Notes: generated by a model from the letters alone, not told the origin. Shown: positions 7,686 to 14,668, counted from the first letter of the stretch. The stretch is DNA of 32,000 nucleotides from Nostoc punctiforme PCC 73102 (GCF_000020025.1 NC_010628.1:7740001-7772000), one strand, 5' to 3'. A program made the numbers and translations.

Positions 7686-8330
7686 ATGACGCTCACGGTC
7701 GAAGCTAGCAGCTTATCTCTCAATGATGTTCATCGTCTTCTCAAGCTAGAAGAACTTTCAGTTGGTTCATTTGCAGATTTTTTAAATTTAGAACCATTGA
7801 CAGAGTTTGAACAGGAGGATTTATTGCGAATTAGAAACGACTTCCGTCGTTATCTCAGGCTTGGTAAAATTTCTGAGGGATTAGTTAAATTTTTAACGAT
7901 TGCACCACTAATGCGGTTAGCAGGGTTTTACGATGTGCCGATTCGGTTGACAATGGAAGATAGCATTGCGATCGCTGTCGAAGATGAAGACAGAAGAATT
8001 ACCGGACGGATGGATATTTTAGCAATCAACAGTTTTCAAAGTAATATTGCACCGCCATTTTGGGTTGTAGTAATTGAAACGAAAAACAGTGCGATTGAAG
8101 TGGGGGAAGGTTTACCTCAATTACTGACTTATGCTTTTAAGAGTTTAGAGCAACAACCATCTGTTTGGGGACTGGTAACTAATGGACTGCGTTATCAATT
8201 TGTTCATCTAAGACATGACGAGCAGTCAAATTATCAGTTAATGCCATTATTAAGCTTAAACGAATCTCCAGATGCAATAGAGTTATTGCAAGTTTTCAAA
8301 GGCATCTGCAAGTTAGCTAATTTTCAGTAA
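7686..8330 (+). CDS. PD-(D/E)xK restriction-endonuclease-like protein (HSDR_N-like fold)
   Basis: 214 aa. A putative nuclease core is GRMDILAIN...FWVVVIETKNS...QLLTYA (D...E.K...Q pattern). It belongs to a family commonly expanded in cyanobacteria, and a Uma2 gene lies immediately downstream. Confidence 0.5.
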   Translation: MTLTVEASSLSLNDVHRLLKLEELSVGSFADFLNLEPLTEFEQEDLLRIRNDFRRYLRLGKISEGLVKFLTIAPLMRLAGFYDVPIRLTMEDSIAIAVEDEDRRITGRMDILAINSFQSNIAPPFWVVVIETKNSAIEVGEGLPQLLTYAFKSLEQQPSVWGLVTNGLRYQFVHLRHDEQSNYQLMPLLSLNESPDAIELLQVFKGICKLANFQ

Positions 8331-8352: not shown

Positions 8353-9104
8353 ATGTCTGAACCTGCTACTTTAGAATTCATCTCTAATGGTATTTCAGAA
8401 GACGAAGTTATTTTTCCTCCTGGTGATATACTTAGTGACGAGCTACCCTTGAAAAGCGATTTACACCGTGACCAAATCGATTTGCTAATTCGCATACTAG
8501 AATTATGGTGGCGGGAGCGGCAATATTTCTATGCTTCTGGCAATTTGACGATTTACTACAGTCCTAACCAGAAAACATCAGAATATTTTCGTGGCCACAG
8601 ACTTTTTTGTAGTTTTGGGAACTCAGAAAAAAGACCGTAAGAGTTGGGTAGTTTGGCAAGAAAACGGCAAATATCCAAACGTGATTGTGGAAATTTTGTC
8701 AAGTTCAAAGACAGCAGTTGATAAAGGGTTAAAAAAACAAGTTTATCAAGATACCTTCCGTACACGAGATTATTTCTGGTTCGACCATGTAACAATGGAA
8801 CTTCAGGGATTCCATTTAGTTGATGGCAAGTATCAAGAAATCCAAGTAACTACTGATGGACGTTTGTGGAGTCAGCAGTTAGAACTTTATTTGGGAGTTT
8901 ATGAAGGTAAATTAAGATTCTTCACTACTGAAAATCAATTAATATTATCATCAGAAGAGTTAGCTGAACAAGAACGTTTACGTGCCCAACAAGCAGAAAA
9001 ACGTGCCCAAGAGTTCAGAAGAACGCGCCCAACAAGCAGAGCAAGAACTTGCTCGATTGCGGGAGGTATTACGCACACAGGGCATTGAGTTAGAGAATAT
9101 TTGA
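8353..9104 (+). pseudogene. Uma2-family endonuclease gene with two frameshifts
   Basis: The Uma2-like sequence is spread over three frames. Frame 1 covers 8353..~8595 (...NLTIYYSPNQKTSEYFRG). Frame 2 runs to ~9013 (DFFVVLGTQKKDRKSWVVWQENGKYPNVIVEILS...). A third frame encodes the expected tail, SEERAQQAEQELARLREVLRTQGIELENI, with its stop at 9102..9104. Confidence 0.8.
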
Positions 9105-9195: not shown

Positions 9196-9888
9196 TTGCA
9201 AGCAACAGAGATTAAGGATAAGCTAAAGTCACTTATCGAGCAAGCCTCCTCGGTAGATCATAATTTGGCGAGAAGATTAGAGGAAATCAATCGTTGGGTA
9301 AAAAATATCAAGCCAGGTTCCCTGACTGCAAAACCATTTGTCATTGCATTTCTCTTAGAGGTAATTACGGATTCTACTATTTGGCTGATAATCAAATCCT
9401 TACCTTCGGAAGAAGAACAGAAAGCAAAGTTCGAGTTGATGACACCGATTGAAAGATATTGGTATGGTTATCTATTTCCTAGATGGATTAATGCAAGTGA
9501 CTCCAAGTTTTATATTTGGAAACAAAAATTGATGGCAGGCGAATTTAATCAGGTCGATGATGATATCATTAGATCAATAGCTCAAGATGTTGTAAGTCGA
9601 GAAGGTAGTTTTTGGCAGCGTTATATCGCCGACCTCTCTATGGCAACAGACCTAATTGTTAGTAGTCGTAACAATCAACCGCTTTGCATTCAAGTTACTA
9701 GTGTCTCTGAAGAACTTAATTACCAAAAGTACCAAGCTTGGCAAAATACACTGCGATCGTGGGAAATAGAGAGAGGATTGTTCTTAAGTTATAATCCCAA
9801 GGATGCTAATTTTGTCAACCAGTTAGTCAACGTGGCCCTGTATAACAGTGATTACCTTTCTGGTGGCAAATATTTAAAATTTTCGTGA
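9196..9888 (+). CDS. Hypothetical protein (230 aa), no family recognised
   Basis: Long ORF with a TTG start and no internal ATG until ~aa 82. It is co-directional with the downstream unknown ORF and the NLR-like locus. A possible degenerate nuclease-like segment is ATDLIVSSRNNQPLCIQVTS. Confidence 0.45.
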   Translation: MQATEIKDKLKSLIEQASSVDHNLARRLEEINRWVKNIKPGSLTAKPFVIAFLLEVITDSTIWLIIKSLPSEEEQKAKFELMTPIERYWYGYLFPRWINASDSKFYIWKQKLMAGEFNQVDDDIIRSIAQDVVSREGSFWQRYIADLSMATDLIVSSRNNQPLCIQVTSVSEELNYQKYQAWQNTLRSWEIERGLFLSYNPKDANFVNQLVNVALYNSDYLSGGKYLKFS

Positions 9889-9955
9889 ACTTTAAGGAAT
9901 TTGATATTTCCGGTTTGTGTTCAGCCTACATACTTACTTGCTAATTACAGCTTTT

Positions 9956-10396
9956 ATGGCTAACAAAAGAGAAACTCACTGCAACAATCAAGTGGATACA
10001 TTTGCTGAAGCTTTAGCAACAGCGCGACAAATGCAGCAGAACTGGCTAACTTATGGGGTTGATTTTGTCAATTTTTACGTTGAAGATGTAGATGGAGACT
10101 GGCTAGAAACCTGGGGACATGACGAAATTTTAGGTAATTCTCAATTAGATGCTATTAAAGAATTTTTGGTAAGTCATGATAGTGTAGCTGTGAAGGTAAG
10201 ACAGCATTTAGGAGAGCGATCGCTGTTTGATTTTGCCGTAAACTTAGATGAATCTTGGAGAATTTCCCAAACCAATGACAGGTTATCTGCGGTAAAAAAT
10301 CTGTTAGCTGGTGAAGAACATAGTATTGATACAGATGATATTAGGTTATTGGATTTAGCAGATAATCTGGTAGTAAAATTGGCAGAGATTTTGTGA
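9956..10396 (+). CDS. Hypothetical acidic protein (146 aa from the ATG)
   Basis: ORF 9917..10396 opens with GTG, but the ATG at 9956 (MANKRETH...) is the more plausible start. The protein is acidic (DVDGDWLETWGHDE, IDTDDIRLLDLAD). No family recognised. Confidence 0.45.
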   Translation: MANKRETHCNNQVDTFAEALATARQMQQNWLTYGVDFVNFYVEDVDGDWLETWGHDEILGNSQLDAIKEFLVSHDSVAVKVRQHLGERSLFDFAVNLDESWRISQTNDRLSAVKNLLAGEEHSIDTDDIRLLDLADNLVVKLAEIL

Positions 10397-10508: not shown

Positions 10509-10925
10509 TTGGAACCAATAACAGCTAGTGCGATCGCAACTCTCGCTTTTACTAAAGCATTTGAGAAAACCATCGAGAAATTCACTGAAGCAGCCCTTGG
10601 TAAAATGGATGAGCTGCGAAAAAAGATTTGGGGTAAATTACGAGGAAATTTGAAAGCAGAAACAGCCCTTGTTGCTGCGGAAAAAGGCTCGAAACCCGAT
10701 GTGGACAGGGTTGCTGCTTACTTGCAGATAATTTTACATGAAGAACCGGAGTTTGCTGAAGAAGTAGAAACACTGGCTCGTGAAATTGAGGCTGGTAAGA
10801 TAGTAGACAAAAGCACTATGACCCAAATCAATCAAGACAATGCCAAAGGATGGCAAACTAAGGTTGAGGGTGGAACAGTTTATCAAGGTGATATTAATAT
10901 TCATCATGCACCCCCCAATTCTTGA
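10509..10925 (+). CDS. Small helical effector-like protein (Bell/HeLo-like candidate) ending in a motif shared with the downstream NLR
   Basis: 138 aa with a TTG start. It has a hydrophobic N-terminal helix (EPITASAIATLAFTKAF) followed by charged helical sequence. The C-terminal NQDNAKGWQTKVEGGTVYQGDINIHHAP is repeated at the N-terminus of the next ORF. Its stop lies 11 nt before the next ATG. Confidence 0.6.
   Translation: MEPITASAIATLAFTKAFEKTIEKFTEAALGKMDELRKKIWGKLRGNLKAETALVAAEKGSKPDVDRVAAYLQIILHEEPEFAEEVETLAREIEAGKIVDKSTMTQINQDNAKGWQTKVEGGTVYQGDINIHHAPPNS
10830..10913 (+). repeat. Copy 1 of a duplicated 28-codon motif (C-terminus of the small ORF)
   Basis: NQDNAKGWQTKVEGGTVYQGDINIHHAP. 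The 35-nt core ggttgagggtggaacagtttatcaaggtgatatta is identical to copy 2. Confidence 0.9.
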
Positions 10926-10948
10926 AGTGAGCCATCATGAACCAAAAT

Positions 10949-11032
10949 AATCAAGGCAACGCCAAGGGATGGCAAAATCAGGTTGAGGGTGGAACAGTTT
11001 ATCAAGGTGATATTAGTATCTACAATTCCCCT
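10949..11032 (+). repeat. Copy 2 of the duplicated 28-codon motif (N-terminus of the NB-ARC/TPR protein)
   Basis: NQGNAKGWQNQVEGGTVYQGDISIYNSP. By hand alignment, 21 of 28 residues are identical to copy 1. Confidence 0.9.
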
Positions 11033-11342
11033 ACTCAGCAGTTACACTCATCTACTCCAAATAATATTCCCTCTCGCGGTGTCGCCAACTTTGTCGGGCG
11101 GGATGAGAAACTTGCAGAGGTGCATAAAAAGTTGCTGCAAAATGACAGCGCGGCAATTTTGGCTTTGGCTGCTATGGGCGGAATGGGTAAAACTGAACTG
11201 GCGACACAATACGCACAGCGCTACAAAGACAATTATCCTGGTGGGCTTTGCTGGTTAGATGCCAGAAAACCAGATTTAGCAGCAGAGATTGTAGAGTTTG
11301 CTAAGTTTTACATGAAACTAGTAGTCTGCCAAGCTAACTTTG

Positions 11343-12508
11343 CTATGTTAAATTTGGATATAAACGCTCCATTTTTCGGCGAGCATCTTTGGTTTGAAAA
11401 CCCCAATAAACACTAGCTTTTTGCTGATTACGTTTTTTCTCCCAAGCGGCAATCTCAGAAGTTAATGTTTCTGCATTAGGAATACGCCGTTCTAAACATT
11501 GGCGAGATAAAACAGATAATTCGATTTCTACCTGATTCAGCCCTTCGGGTTCGCCAGTTGCTTCAAGTCGGGGAACCCGCCCAACGCACTGGCTCACCAA
11601 GAAGCGTGTTTAGGAGTATAGTGAAACTCTAACTTTTGAATAATTCGACGTGCTTCTTCTGGTGGAAAAACTTCATATAATGCATTGGGTGTATGAATAT
11701 TCAAGTTATCAACTACTAAACGAATAACATCGGCATCTCGGTAGGAAACATCTACTAAATTTTTCATTTGTTTAGCAAAATCGGCTTTAGTTCGACGTTC
11801 TGTAACTTCGATATGCCGCCATCCAGCCAAGGGTTGAAAACATGCGAATAAATTTACTGTCCCGTACGTTATACTCAAAATCATAACGTTCAGGTTGCTC
11901 TGGCTGTGGTGGCAAAGGAAGTCTTACTTCTTCTACTAATTGGTATGGACGTTCATCAAAGCAGACTACAGGGCGTTTAGGATCATAAGGCTCATTGTAT
12001 AAATCCAGCACATCTTCCATTCGGAAAACATATTCTGCGTTAACTTCAGGAATACACCATTGTTCTTTCAACCAAGGCTTAATTTCATTTTTTTTAAAGT
12101 TTGACGTACTGTTTCATCTGAGATTGAATCTATGATACCAACGTTCACTAAATGATCTGCTAATAATTGCATTGTCCAACGCACTCTTCCTTCTGGCGGA
12201 TTAGAACAAGCTGTTGCAATCAAAAATGCTTCTTGCTTTTCATCTAATTTTTTATGTTTTGGTGGATGAACTTCATCCTTTAAAGCAAAATCTAACCCTC
12301 CAATGACAAATTTTTCTCGTATTCGTTGCACTGTTGCAACATGCGCTCTAACTATGCTAGCGATCGCTTGATCCGTTTCTCCTTCGGAAGCCATCAAAAG
12401 AATGTTTGCACGGCTTATGGTTCTTGCCTTATGCTTACCTTTCTTAATTATCGATTGCAGTTGGGAAACTTCATCTTCATTCAAGTCAACAATGTACTTT
12501 TTTGCCAT
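11343..12508 (-). pseudogene. IS630-family transposase, fragmented into four reading-frame segments
   Basis: The segments are 12068..12508 (HTH N-terminus), 11787..12071 ([12 protein letters not shown]...), 11594..11884 ([17 protein letters not shown]...DNLNIHT...FHYTPKHASW) and 11343..11600 (LNQVEIELSVLSRQCL...). Junction 1 lies at an A8 run. Junction 2 is a simple indel. Junction 3 is a 56-bp insertion. Confidence 0.85.
11541..11596. repeat. 56-bp hairpin-containing mini-insertion inside the IS630 transposase gene
   Basis: It separates the conserved ...HASW and LNQVEIE... residues, which are normally contiguous in IS630 transposases. It contains the inverted pair CGGGTTC/GAACCCG. Its length is not a multiple of 3. 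Confidence 0.6.
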
Positions 12509-13569
12509 GTTACACCCCGTTTTTGGCTATTTTACCAATTAGAGGTTTTACTTAGCAAAGTTACCTTGGTACACTACTAGAAGTACCGCAAACTTTATTG
12601 ACTTCCCAGGAACAAGCAAAATGGTGCTGGCATAATTGGCAACCACAAGCAGGACTAGTTTTAGTAGTATTGGACAATGTTGACGATCTTACTAACTGGA
12701 AAAATTGTCGGCAAATACTACCAACAAATAACCGCTTCTGTGTATTAATTACAAGTCGGTTGCGAAATCTCGGTTTAAATGTCACAGAGATAAGCTTGGA
12801 TGAACTGTCACCAGAAAAAGCTTTGAATTTGTTGACAGCTTTGTTGGGCGAAAAAGATAGGCGAGTGCAACGAGAACCAGAAACGGCAGTAAATTTATGT
12901 AAATGGCTGGGATATCTGCCTTTAGGTTTGCAATTAGTGGGCGCGTATTTGGCAGAAGATCCAAATTTATCTTTGGCAAAGATTTTACAGCAATTACCAA
13001 CTCAGCAAAAGTCTCAATTAGAAGCTGTATTTGAATTAAGCTGGCAACAACTCGATTTTATGACACAGTGTGTCGGTGAATTGTTGAGTTTATTTGCCCC
13101 AGATATCATTCCTTGGCAATTGGTTGAATCTGTCAGTCAGCAGCTAAATTGGGCGAAGGCAGATGTTGATGAGGCGAGAAAGCAACTTTATAAGCGCCAT
13201 TTAATTCAAAGCGTAGCAGAAGGAGAAAGTTGCTATAAAATTCATCCTTTAATTAGGGAGTTTTTGCAGGGTAAATTGGCAGGGTTAAACACAGGCGATG
13301 ACCTCAAAAAAGCCTTTGCCGCAGCATTAGTAAAAATTGCTCAGAAAATACCTGAATCTCTCACTCTTGAGGATATTAAGTCAGTGCAACTGGCAATTCC
13401 CCATTTAACTGAAGTGGCACAAAATCTGATTGATGCTGTGGAGGATGAAAATTTAACTTGGGTTTTCACTGGCTTGGGCAAATTCTATCAAGGTCAAGGT
13501 TTGTATACCCTAGCAGCACCTTGGTATGAGCAAGGATTATCAACGGTACAAACCCGTTTGGGAGAAGAA

Positions 13570-14073
13570 CATAGCCATGTTGCCACCAACCTTAGCTGGC
13601 TGGCAAGTCTCTACGATTTTCAAGGACGCTACGACCAAGCCGAACCCCTGTTTCTGCAAGCTTTAGAACTTTCTAAACGCCTGCTGGGAGATGCACATCC
13701 CGATGTTGCCAACAGCCTGAATTGTTTGGCAAATATCTACTATTATCAAGGACGCTACGACCAAGCCGAACCCCTGTATCTGCAAGCTTTAGAACTGAGA
13801 AAACGCCTGCTCGGAGATGCACATCCCTTAGTTGCCAACAGCCTGAATTGTTTGGCAAATCTCTACTATTCTCAAAGACGCTACGACCAAGCCGAACCCC
13901 TGTCTCTGCAAGCTTTAGAACTTTCTAAACGCCTGCTCGGAGATGCACATCCCGATGTTGCCAACAGCCTGAATTGTTTGGCAAATCTCTACTATTCTCA
14001 AGGACGCTACGAACGAGCCGAACCCCTGTATCTGCAAGCTTTAAAGATTTATAAACAGGTGTTTGGGGTAAAT
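13570..14073 (+). repeat. Four tandem 126-bp (42-codon) TPR units with very high nucleotide identity inside the NLR-like gene
   Basis: Unit boundaries lie at about 13570, 13696, 13822 and 13948. Long stretches (caaggacgctacgaccaagccgaacccctg...gcaagctttagaact...aaacgcctgct.ggagatgcacatccc...gttgccaacagcctgaattgtttggcaaat) repeat almost verbatim. Confidence 0.9.
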
Positions 14074-14239
14074 CATCCCAATACGGTTACTGTTCGGCAA
14101 AATCTAGAAAATGCTCGGGCTAATAAATAGTGTTAGCCGGACAGTTAAAAATAATGCTAATAATTCCTTGTGGAAGAAGCTTTTGGGGTTATTTGATTGA
14201 AGCGAAAGTTGTAATTATAGCAAGGAACTGGGGACACTT

Positions 14240-14483: not shown

Positions 14484-14668
14484 AATAAACGACACCCCGA
14501 ATTCGATAAACGACACCCCGAATTCAATAAACAACTCCCCGAATTCAATGAACGACTCTCCGAATTCAATGAACGACTCCCCGAATTCAATGAACGACTC
14601 CCCGAATTCAATAAACGATACCCCGAATTCGATGAACGACACCCCGAATTCGATGAACAACACCCCCC
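14484..14668. repeat. Tandem array of a 21-bp unit (about 8.8 copies), each unit containing GAATTC
   Basis: Units start at 14484, 14505, 14526, 14547, 14568, 14589, 14610, 14631 and 14652 (partial). The consensus is RATRAACGACWCCCCGAATTC. An A/T-rich stretch lies just upstream. Confidence 0.95.

What the first reader, a model, noticed from the sequence alone, without database searches (positions are those of the whole stretch)
10509..11032. Effector-like small ORF and adjacent NLR share a 28-residue motif: amyloid-signalling (Bell/BASS-like) gene pair
The 138-aa ORF ends with NQDNAKGWQTKVEGGTVYQGDINIHHAP. The NB-ARC/TPR gene starts 11 nt later and begins with NQGNAKGWQNQVEGGTVYQGDISIYNSP. By hand alignment, 21 of 28 residues are identical, and a 35-nt core is identical at the DNA level. 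A short helical membrane-targeting-like protein whose C-terminal G/Q/N/V-rich motif is mirrored at the N-terminus of a neighbouring NLR is the architecture described for fungal HET-S/NWD2 signalling. It was also predicted bioinformatically for multicellular bacteria as Bell-domain proteins with bacterial amyloid signalling sequences. In that model the activated NLR templates the effector motif into an amyloid fold and triggers a membrane-damaging N-terminal domain. The hydrophobic N-terminal helix of the small ORF (ITASAIATLAF) fits such an effector.
Basis: partly seen in the sequence, partly recalled or inferred. Interest (0 to 1): 0.8.

Follow-up and report, generated by a model that had tools for sequence, protein, structure and literature searches.

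The report
Known amyloid-signalling gene pair, receptor broken
A small cell-death effector gene and the neighbouring immune-receptor (NLR) gene share a short amyloid-type motif, and they belong to a published cyanobacterial family (BASS9), but in this genome a mobile element has split the receptor gene.

Summary
The 138-aa ORF (10509-10925, TTG start) ends with a motif that recurs at the start of the NB-ARC/TPR gene 11 nt downstream. The two copies are 23/32 identical (BLASTP E=4e-14) and share a 36-nt identical DNA core.

The motif matches BASS9 of Dyrka et al. 2020. The small protein is 70% identical over its full length to a listed BASS9 Bell protein, Calothrix PCC 6303 AFZ02241.1. It starts MEPIT..., the conserved Bell/Bab N-terminus. 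AlphaFold2 models five helices followed by a disordered motif.

Twenty-one syntenic Nostoc loci keep two separate genes with the same 11-nt gap. Partner motifs co-vary across cyanobacterial clades.

Exact excision restores a 644-aa ORF, and every relative examined carries an uninterrupted NLR reading frame, complete or running off its contig. The system is therefore probably disabled in this strain, apparently Nostoc punctiforme PCC 73102. Amyloid formation by BASS9 has not been tested in the papers I could search.

Noticed in passing: 66 related loci replace the second motif copy with an in-frame stop (64 TGA). A covarying pseudoknot follows 8 nt later and the frame runs into the NLR, which suggests programmed readthrough.

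The parts
10509..10925 (+). Effector gene: 138-aa Bell-domain protein with a C-terminal BASS9 motif. Identical to ACC84554.1 / WP_012412494.1 of Nostoc punctiforme PCC 73102.
   Evidence: ORF. Exact-sequence look-up. 266 homologues, nearly all about 135-150 aa. TTG start conserved in 20 related loci.
10509..10808 (+). Bell domain, residues 1-100. N-terminal hydrophobic helix MEPITASAIATLAF with Glu at position 2, then four further helices.
   Evidence: AlphaFold2 helices 6-13, 27-44, 48-58, 62-78 and 80-95, with block-mean pLDDT 69-84 over residues 1-100. N-terminus nearly invariant in alignment A1. It matches the 'MEPIS' motif region and the 'four helices cupping helix 1' description in 10.1101/2024.11.07.622273.
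10818..10913 (+). Effector-side BASS9 motif, residues 104-135: MTQINQDNAKGWQTKVEGGTVYQGDINIHHAP.
   Evidence: 20/23 identical to the published BASS9 segment of AFZ02241.1. Modelled as disordered, pLDDT below 50. Direct repeat D2.
10926..10936 (+). 11-nt intergenic spacer. The two genes are in different reading frames.
   Evidence: The same 11-nt gap occurs in 21 of 22 syntenic Nostoc loci.
10937..11032 (+). Receptor-side BASS9 motif, NLR residues 1-32: MNQNNQGNAKGWQNQVEGGTVYQGDISIYNSP.
10937..11320 (+). NLR gene, 5' part (codons 1-128): motif, linker, start of NB-ARC with P-loop GGMGKT at 11177-11194.
   Evidence: Pfam NB-ARC profile positions 2-56. Sequence.
11321..12577 (-). IS630-family insertion sequence, 1257 bp. 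It has imperfect terminal inverted repeats and is flanked by a duplicated TA (11319-11320 and 12578-12579). Its transposase is broken into four collinear pieces.
   Evidence: Inverted repeat I1. Ends read. NCBIfam transpos_IS630 matches at profile positions 2-112, 116-180, 180-261 and 262-299 on four ORFs. Pfam HTH_32 and DDE_3. Copies 92-93% identical on Nostoc plasmids.
12580..14130 (+). NLR gene, 3' part (codons 129-644 and stop): rest of NB-ARC, helical linker, TPR sensor.
   Evidence: Joining 10937-11320 to 12580-14130 gives one uninterrupted 644-aa ORF. Pfam NB-ARC positions 102-227 and TPR_12/TPR_10.
13601..14043 (+). Internally conserved TPR repeat array: 126-nt (42-aa) period, 3.5 copies, 91% matches.
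   Evidence: Orthologues vary from 549 to 1088 aa, with 1-14 TPR core motifs.

Best explanation
This is a two-gene NLR/effector cell-death module of the published Bell-domain/BASS9 type, caught in an inactivated state. Shown here: the effector is a 138-aa protein with a Bell helical domain, whose first helix (MEPITASAIATLAF) is hydrophobic, and a disordered C-terminal BASS9 motif. The adjacent gene encoded a 644-aa NB-ARC/TPR receptor that starts with the same motif. Inferred by analogy with HET-S/NWD2, with tested BASS1/BASS3 pairs and with Bab/Agp: ligand binding by the TPR array drives NB-ARC oligomerisation. That brings the N-terminal motifs together into a cross-beta nucleus. The nucleus templates the effector's motif, which frees helix 1 for membrane attack and kills the cell, an abortive or altruistic death within the filament. 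Shown here: in this genome a 1257-bp IS630-family element sits in codon 128/129 of the receptor, just after the P-loop. The sensor and most of the NOD are therefore cut off from the motif. The most likely present state is a disabled system with an intact orphan effector gene.
For: Motif repeat. Identity with published BASS9: searches (Table S2 of 10.1101/2020.01.06.895854; P0006 = AFZ02241.1), with 70% full-length identity. Bell features: Glu2 and a hydrophobic first helix, five predicted helices, disordered tail; these match the descriptions read. Receptor domains. Conservation of the pair: 22 syntenic Nostoc loci plus Calothrix, Scytonematopsis, Aetokthonos, Nodularia and Crocosphaera pairs with their own gap lengths. 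Partner-specific similarity: mean score 79 for true partners vs 58 for non-partners, permutation p about 2e-5. For example, Nodularia has STGYQIGTATGTNYFGG vs STGYQVGKATGNNHFGN. IS insertion and exact restoration of the ORF. Uninterrupted NLR reading frames in all relatives. Experimental precedent for the mechanism in bacteria: Bab/Agp, and BASS1/BASS3 fibrils and prion behaviour.
Against: No BASS9 peptide has been shown to form amyloid in the papers I could search. No Pfam, NCBIfam or PADLOC model recognises the effector. Foldseek against the PDB found nothing significant; the best E-value was 0.8, and only weak plant CC-domain hits appeared. Bell membership therefore rests on homology to a listed member and on predicted features. 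Within the shallow Nostoc clade, partner-specific similarity is weak (nt identity 0.786 vs 0.777, p=0.017; protein p=0.07). The across-clade signal is confounded by shared descent. What the receptor senses and what the biological role is remain unknown. With the receptor broken, nothing need work in this strain.
Confidence: 0.72

Rival explanations
1. The shared motif is an ordinary hetero-association tag, for example beta-strand addition or a short coiled contact. It docks the small protein on the receptor without any amyloid or prion-like templating.
For: BASS9 has never been tested experimentally. AlphaFold2 gives no structure for the motif. Partner co-variation is expected for any direct interaction.
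Against: The composition and layout (G/N/Q/V-rich, about 25 residues, GG turn between two short hydrophobic/polar alternating stretches, C-terminus of effector mirrored at the N-terminus of the NLR) are those of motifs that did form fibrils and prions when tested: BASS1, BASS3 and BASS11.
Confidence: 0.15
2. The second copy is a functionless by-product of a recent local tandem duplication around the stop codon.
For: A 36-nt identical DNA core, and 17 of 21 identical-residue degenerate codons use the same codon in both copies. Some distant relatives do have effector and NLR in one frame.
Against: The two-copy, two-gene layout is kept in 22 Nostoc loci. Orthologous copies are much more alike (0.93 and 0.87) than the paralogous copies (0.78), so both copies are old and separately maintained. 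More distant genera keep two copies with different spacers. The published BASS9 set shows the same pairing.
Confidence: 0.03
3. The locus is simply a decaying pseudogene cluster with no present activity of either gene in this strain.
For: The receptor is split by an IS whose own transposase is broken in three places. A neighbouring Uma2 gene also looks split.
Against: The effector ORF is intact, with its conserved TTG start and 96% identity to orthologues. Both receptor halves are still free of stops and frameshifts, so the insertion is evolutionarily recent. This rival concerns the present state and is compatible with the best explanation of what the module is.
Confidence: 0.1

Closest known systems
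BASS9 Bell-domain/NLR gene pairs of cyanobacteria (Dyrka et al. 2020, bioRxiv 10.1101/2020.01.06.895854), e.g. Calothrix sp. PCC 6303 AFZ02241.1/AFZ02242.1
   Same: Same effector family (70% identity over 138 aa). Same motif (20/23 identical to the listed segment) at the same residues (104-126). A collinear NB-ARC/TPR partner starts with the motif. The intergenic distance is short (11 nt here, 17 nt listed there).
   Different: This pair is not in the paper's Table S2. The receptor here is interrupted by an IS630-family element. The two copies here are more alike than in the Calothrix pair (23/32 identities here against 12 listed there).
HET-S / NWD2 of Podospora anserina (fungal amyloid prion signalling)
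   Same: Same logic: a pore-forming helical effector with a C-terminal amyloid motif, an adjacent NLR with the motif at its N-terminus, and templating as the signal.
   Different: No sequence relationship was detected. There were no HeLo or other Pfam hits. The motif is BASS9, not the HRAM type, and occurs as a single copy rather than a two-fold pseudorepeat. The NOD is NB-ARC/TPR, not NACHT/WD.
Bab/Agp antiphage abortive-infection system of E. coli (BASS11; bioRxiv 10.1101/2024.11.07.622273)
   Same: A small helical effector with a conserved MEPIS-like N-terminal helix and a C-terminal amyloid motif shared with the adjacent sensor. Amyloid-dependent cell death has been shown experimentally.
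   Different: The Bab domain is shorter (about 80 aa, 'Babybell'). The sensor Agp is TPR-GreA/B-C-PIN, not an NLR. The motif family differs (BASS11). It is not a homologue detectable here.
Retroviral gag-pol stop-codon readthrough (murine leukaemia virus UAG, 8-nt spacer, pseudoknot) and phage Q-beta A1 UGA readthrough. Relevant only to the side observation in related loci; recalled from my own knowledge.
   Same: A leaky stop is followed about 8 nt later by an H-type pseudoknot and an in-frame extension that yields a minor long product.
   Different: The loci are cyanobacterial chromosomal immune genes. The stop is UGA-CUN. The idea is untested, and the arrangement is not present in the window.

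Membership tests
Bell-domain/BASS-NLR amyloid signalling pair (BASS9) | Effector is a short (about 120-140 aa) protein with an N-terminal Bell domain: hydrophobic first helix, acidic residue at position 2 or 3, helical bundle. | tested here: met
   138 aa, MEPITASAIATLAF with Glu2. AlphaFold2 gives five helices in residues 6-95. 70% identical over full length to AFZ02241.1, a Bell protein in the paper's set. No Pfam model exists for a direct test.
Bell-domain/BASS-NLR amyloid signalling pair (BASS9) | C-terminal motif of about 25 residues matching the BASS9 (nlr_20) pattern. | tested here: met
   MTQINQDNAKGWQTKVEGGTVYQ vs the listed MTQINQDNAKGWQTKVDGGTAYI, 20/23 identical at the same residue numbers.
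Bell-domain/BASS-NLR amyloid signalling pair (BASS9) | Adjacent collinear gene encodes NB-ARC or NACHT plus TPR/WD repeats and carries the same motif at its N-terminus. | tested here: met
   NB-ARC and TPR by Pfam. The motif occupies residues 1-32. 11-nt gap, same strand. The gene is split by an IS, but exact excision restores it.
Bell-domain/BASS-NLR amyloid signalling pair (BASS9) | Occurs in multicellular or filamentous prokaryotes. | tested here: met
   The exact protein is found only in Nostoc punctiforme PCC 73102. The named homologues are cyanobacteria, mostly filamentous genera, with some in colonial or unicellular ones (Microcystis, Crocosphaera).
Bell-domain/BASS-NLR amyloid signalling pair (BASS9) | Motifs form amyloid fibrils, and the receptor-side motif templates the effector-side motif. 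| not testable with these tools
   Needs ThT/EM, cross-seeding or in vivo foci assays. No BASS9 experiment was found in the searchable literature.
Bell-domain/BASS-NLR amyloid signalling pair (BASS9) | Bell domain executes cell death at the membrane. | not testable with these tools
   Inferred from Bab and the HET-S analogy only.
HeLo/HET-S family (fungal) | HeLo or HeLo-like domain detectable by profile, with an HRAM-type motif. | tested here: not met
   No HeLo, HeLo-like or SesA hit in Pfam, even at E up to 1 across 36 family members. The motif is unrelated in sequence. The pair works like this family but is not a member.
Known antiphage defence systems (PADLOC-DB 2.0) | Profile match of the effector or receptor to a catalogued system. 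| tested here: not met
   Effector: no hit. Receptor: only a generic TPR model.

The most novel reading that the evidence does not exclude
The effector family of this ORF may give the receptor the same amyloid motif in two interchangeable ways. One is a second gene with a duplicated motif, as in the window. The other is a single reading frame in which a leaky UGA, followed 8 nt later by a covarying H-type pseudoknot, lets a fraction of ribosomes read through. That would give abundant free Bell-BASS effector and a rare Bell-BASS-NLR receptor from one gene. If true, this would be programmed stop-codon readthrough in bacterial chromosomal immune genes, and the window's split pair would be the alternative solution to the same problem.
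Probability: 0.55. Interest if true: 0.8.

Novelty: new member of a known kind. Interest (0 to 1): 0.35.

Why it matters
The pair itself adds little. It is one more BASS9 Bell/NLR module. It sits in a cyanobacterium that I recall is a genetically tractable model (from my own knowledge, not checked here), and the strain offers a natural receptor knock-out. That could serve as a clean background for testing BASS9, which appears never to have been assayed.

The follow-up matters more. Dozens of related cyanobacterial loci join the effector and the NLR through a conserved UGA-plus-pseudoknot cassette. If this is readthrough, it would explain many Bell proteins whose neighbouring NLR lacks a motif. 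It would also fix the effector-to-receptor ratio in the genetic code of one gene, and it would add a rare bacterial case of programmed readthrough.

Tried and rejected
1. Pfam (also at E up to 1 over 36 members), NCBIfam and PADLOC on the small ORF gave no family.

3. I tested whether the DNA-level identity of the two motif copies reflects ongoing gene conversion. Within-genome identity barely exceeds between-genome identity (0.786 vs 0.777), and orthologues are much closer than paralogues. Ongoing conversion is rejected as the main force.

4. The fused-ORF scenario is rejected for close relatives.

5. A search of the window for the readthrough cassette found 0 matches.

6. Rfam searched on four cassette loci gave no family at the junction.

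7. Selenocysteine decoding of the in-frame UGA is rejected as unlikely. The downstream element is a pseudoknot, not a SECIS-type hairpin. Two loci carry TAG or TAA at the site and one carries GAG.

8. Independent initiation of the downstream NLR is rejected for many loci. The first in-frame ATG/GTG/TTG lies inside or after the P-loop.

9. Literature searches for a prior description of readthrough in these genes found none in the held library. This is not proof of absence.

Full report
**1. The observation**

An ORF runs from a TTG at 10509 to a TGA at 10923-10925 (138 aa). An ATG follows at 10937, 11 nt later and in another frame. The C-terminus of the first protein aligns with the N-terminus of the second over 32 residues, starting at a Met in both. 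There are 23 identities and 28 positives, BLASTP E=4e-14. At DNA level the repeat is 83 nt at 89% identity, with a 36-nt identical run. The TTG start is real: 20 related loci have TTG at the homologous codon behind an AAGGTAGGA box, and 41 more distant homologues have ATG there.

**2.

The gene starting at 10937 hits NB-ARC. However, its ORF ends after 159 codons. The rest of NB-ARC and a strong TPR array lie in a second ORF at 12598-14130.

Between them sits a 1257-bp element (11321-12577). It has imperfect terminal inverted repeats and a duplicated TA on each side (11319-11320 and 12578-12579). On the minus strand it carries four collinear pieces of an IS630-family transposase, matching NCBIfam profile positions 2-112, 116-180, 180-261 and 262-299. 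Copies 92-93% identical occur on plasmids of other Nostoc strains.

Removing the element and one TA joins 10937-11320 to 12580-14130 into a single 644-aa ORF. Its layout is motif, NB-ARC (P-loop GGMGKT at 11177-11194), helical linker and TPRs. The insertion lies in codon 128/129, so the motif and P-loop are cut off from most of the NOD and all of the sensor. Both halves are still free of stops, so the insertion is evolutionarily recent.

**3. Origin and relatives**

The exact 138-aa sequence is ACC84554.1 / WP_012412494.1 (UniProt B2IX19) of Nostoc punctiforme PCC 73102, found on one 8.23-Mb contig. The window is therefore very probably from that chromosome.

The small protein has 266 homologues at E<=1e-3, nearly all 135-150 aa, and the named ones come from cyanobacteria. 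A profile search of 1.84 billion representatives found 489.

Twenty-two loci from other Nostoc genomes (L001-L023, L028) encode the pair. Those read gene by gene (L001-L003) sit in the same place, a variable stretch between acetyl-CoA synthetase and terC/ndk. In 21 of the 22 the small ORF is followed after the same 11 nt by an ATG-initiated NLR with the motif. None has the IS.

The complete NLRs range from 549 to 1088 aa and carry 1 to 14 TPR core motifs. The window's own array is 3.5 copies of a 126-nt unit at 91% identity. This is the repeat instability described for NLR sensors (paper text read).

**4. What it is**

The motif is a published one. Supplementary Table S2 of Dyrka et al. 2020 lists, under bass_09/nlr_20, pairs such as Calothrix sp. 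PCC 6303 AFZ02241.1 residues 104-126 (MTQINQDNAKGWQTKVDGGTAYI) with AFZ02242.1 residues 1-23. It also lists Microcystis, Pseudanabaena and Leptolyngbya pairs. My hit P0006 is AFZ02241.1. It is 70% identical to the window protein over its whole length, and the window motif is 20/23 identical to the listed segment at the same residue numbers. The window pair itself is not in that table, plausibly because its NLR is split.

The N-terminal 100 residues fit the Bell description. The first helix is hydrophobic, Glu is at position 2, and AlphaFold2 gives five helices (6-13, 27-44, 48-58, 62-78, 80-95; pLDDT about 70-84). Residues 100-138 are modelled as disordered. The opening MEPIT matches the 'MEPIS' motif region that the Bab/Agp study reports as shared by Bell, Hell, Bab and several antiphage NLRs. 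The four helices after helix 1 match its 'four helices cupping helix 1'.

No Pfam, NCBIfam or PADLOC model recognises the domain, and Foldseek against the PDB gave nothing significant. Membership therefore rests on homology to a listed member plus predicted features.

**5. Do the two copies co-evolve?**

I compared twelve pairs from different clades: my loci plus three published pairs. True partners score higher than non-partners (mean 79 vs 58, permutation p about 2e-5). Clear cases include:
- Nodularia: STGYQIGTATGTNYFGG vs STGYQVGKATGNNHFGN.
- Aetokthonos: ATGYQNHITGGEVFQG vs ATGFQNDISGGTSYLG.
- Crocosphaera.

Shared descent inflates this test. Inside the shallow Nostoc clade the effect is slight (nt identity 0.786 vs 0.777, p=0.017). 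Orthologous copies (0.93 and 0.87) are far closer than the two copies within one genome (0.78). Both copies are therefore old and separately maintained. This is not a fresh duplication, and ongoing gene conversion is not the main force.

**6. How it most likely works**

Shown here:
- The architecture and its conservation.
- The motif's identity with BASS9.
- The disrupted receptor.

Inferred from HET-S/NWD2, from BASS1 and BASS3 (fibrils and prion behaviour) and from Bab/Agp (amyloid-dependent abortive infection in E. coli):
- TPR-mediated recognition triggers NB-ARC oligomerisation.
- The clustered N-terminal motifs nucleate a cross-beta fold.
- That fold converts the effector's C-terminal motif.
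- Helix 1 is released and damages the membrane, and the cell dies.

In this strain the chain is broken at the first step. Whether the leftover 159-aa product (motif plus P-loop plus 31 IS-encoded residues) is made, or matters, is unknown. BASS9 itself appears only in bioinformatic work in the papers I could search.

**7. Novelty and score**

Two points give it modest value: the host, which I recall is a tractable model (from my own knowledge, not checked here), and the natural receptor knock-out. Interest 0.35.

**8. Side observation in related loci (not in the window)**

While checking for fused relatives I found that 41 of the 83 homologous loci have a different layout.

- *Layout.* The Bell-BASS ORF ends in a stop (39 TGA, 1 TAG, 1 TAA), usually followed by CTN. 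The same frame then stays open for at least 100 codons. In most loci it runs into an NB-ARC P-loop about 50 codons on. These NLRs have no motif copy of their own. In many loci the first in-frame ATG/GTG/TTG lies inside or beyond the P-loop.
- *The translated stretch.* The region just after the stop is homologous to residues 40-55 of the window's NLR (NPPxxIPxRGVANFVGR). Differences there fall 0.33/0.20/0.47 on codon positions 1/2/3, a coding pattern.
- *RNA structure.* Eight nucleotides after the stop lies a conserved element that fits an H-type pseudoknot. Stem 1 pairs alignment A2 columns 18-22 with 32-36. Stem 2 pairs columns 27-30 with 46-49. Of all cells, 91% are paired, against 15-50% when the partners are slid. 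Twenty-five cells have changes on both sides, against 6.5 +/- 4.1 in shuffles (0 of 500 reach it). Examples are CG to UA at 19-35 (16 vs 13 sequences) and GC/CG/AU at 27-49. RNAalifold independently predicts stem 1. The compensatory changes alter the encoded peptide (ERERA vs AGEPT), so the constraint acts on the RNA.
- *Independent sample.* A metagenome scan with the pseudoknot pattern alone, with no stop in the pattern, returned 25 loci. All 25 have TGA at the same distance upstream. Wherever the upstream frame is complete it is a Bell-like MEP... ORF with varied BASS-like C-termini. The frame downstream is open into NB-ARC in most.
- *Variants.* One database protein (P0210) spans the junction only because its gene was called with TGA read as Trp. 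One locus pair (L110, L111) has GAG at the stop position and encodes a true fusion to a GUN4-domain protein. True Bell-BASS9-NB-ARC-TPR fusions without the cassette also exist (P0165, P0185). BASS9-type effectors occur with the cassette as well (L037, L039).
- *Prior description.* The element has no Rfam match in the four cassette loci searched, is absent from the window, and I found no description of it in the held literature.
- *Reading.* The best reading is programmed UGA readthrough that makes a short effector and a long effector-receptor fusion from one gene. From my own knowledge, UGA-C is a weak terminator context in E. coli, and an 8-nt spacer before a pseudoknot is the murine leukaemia virus arrangement. 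The idea is untested, and I put it at about 0.55.

One-frame relatives do exist, but they are an alternative way to put one motif on both proteins. They are not evidence that the window's second copy is an accident.

Noticed in passing
Related loci, e.g. L045:5424-5487, L041:5409-5472, L072:5412-5475, L037:1407-1470; also L084-L108; not in the window: In 66 loci a Bell-BASS ORF ends in a stop (64 TGA, 1 TAG, 1 TAA), usually followed by CTN. Eight nt later comes a covarying H-type pseudoknot, and the same frame continues into an NB-ARC that lacks its own start codon and motif. This looks like programmed stop-codon readthrough. It is not in Rfam, and I did not find it in the searchable literature.
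   Followed up: partly
window 11321-12577 (flanking TA at 11319-11320 and 12578-12579): An IS630-family element splits the NLR at codon 128/129. Its transposase is itself broken into four collinear ORFs (three frame changes), so the copy may be defective or mobilised in trans. Copies 92-93% identical lie on plasmids of other Nostoc strains.
   Followed up: yes
window 14484-14666: A tandem array of a 21-nt unit (AATGAACGACACCCCGAATTC, 8.7 copies, 90% matches) lies in the intergenic stretch between the NLR and terC. It produces spurious repetitive ORFs on both strands.
   Followed up: no
window 8353-9088: A Uma2-family (putative restriction endonuclease-like) gene appears split into two overlapping ORFs (8353-8640 and 8591-9088). 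The syntenic gene in Nostoc locus L003 is a single 242-aa ORF. This is probably a frameshifted pseudogene.
   Followed up: no
window 13601-14043 and orthologous NLRs in L001-L028: The receptor's TPR units are 91% identical to each other. Orthologous receptors at the same locus range from 549 to 1088 aa with 1-14 TPR core motifs, while the effector stays at 138 aa. This indicates rapid repeat expansion and contraction in the sensor.
   Followed up: partly
Proteins P0142, P0176, P0154 (L110:1501-2682), P0165, P0185: The same Bell-BASS9 module also occurs fused directly to other partners. P0142 (617 aa) and P0176 (337 aa) are long products whose C-terminal parts were not checked. P0154 is fused to a GUN4 domain through a cassette with GAG in place of the stop. 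P0165 and P0185 are fused to NB-ARC/TPR with no stop at all.
   Followed up: partly
L003:4742-5259 and L003:10707-11269 (syntenic island in Nostoc sp. S5): The stretch between acs and terC/ndk that holds the pair is variable. One relative carries a ParE toxin next to a DUF6887 gene on one side of the pair and a ParE/ParD module on the other. The window has a PD-(D/E)xK-like gene (7686-8330) and two conserved unknown genes (9196-9888, 9917-10396) upstream.
   Followed up: no
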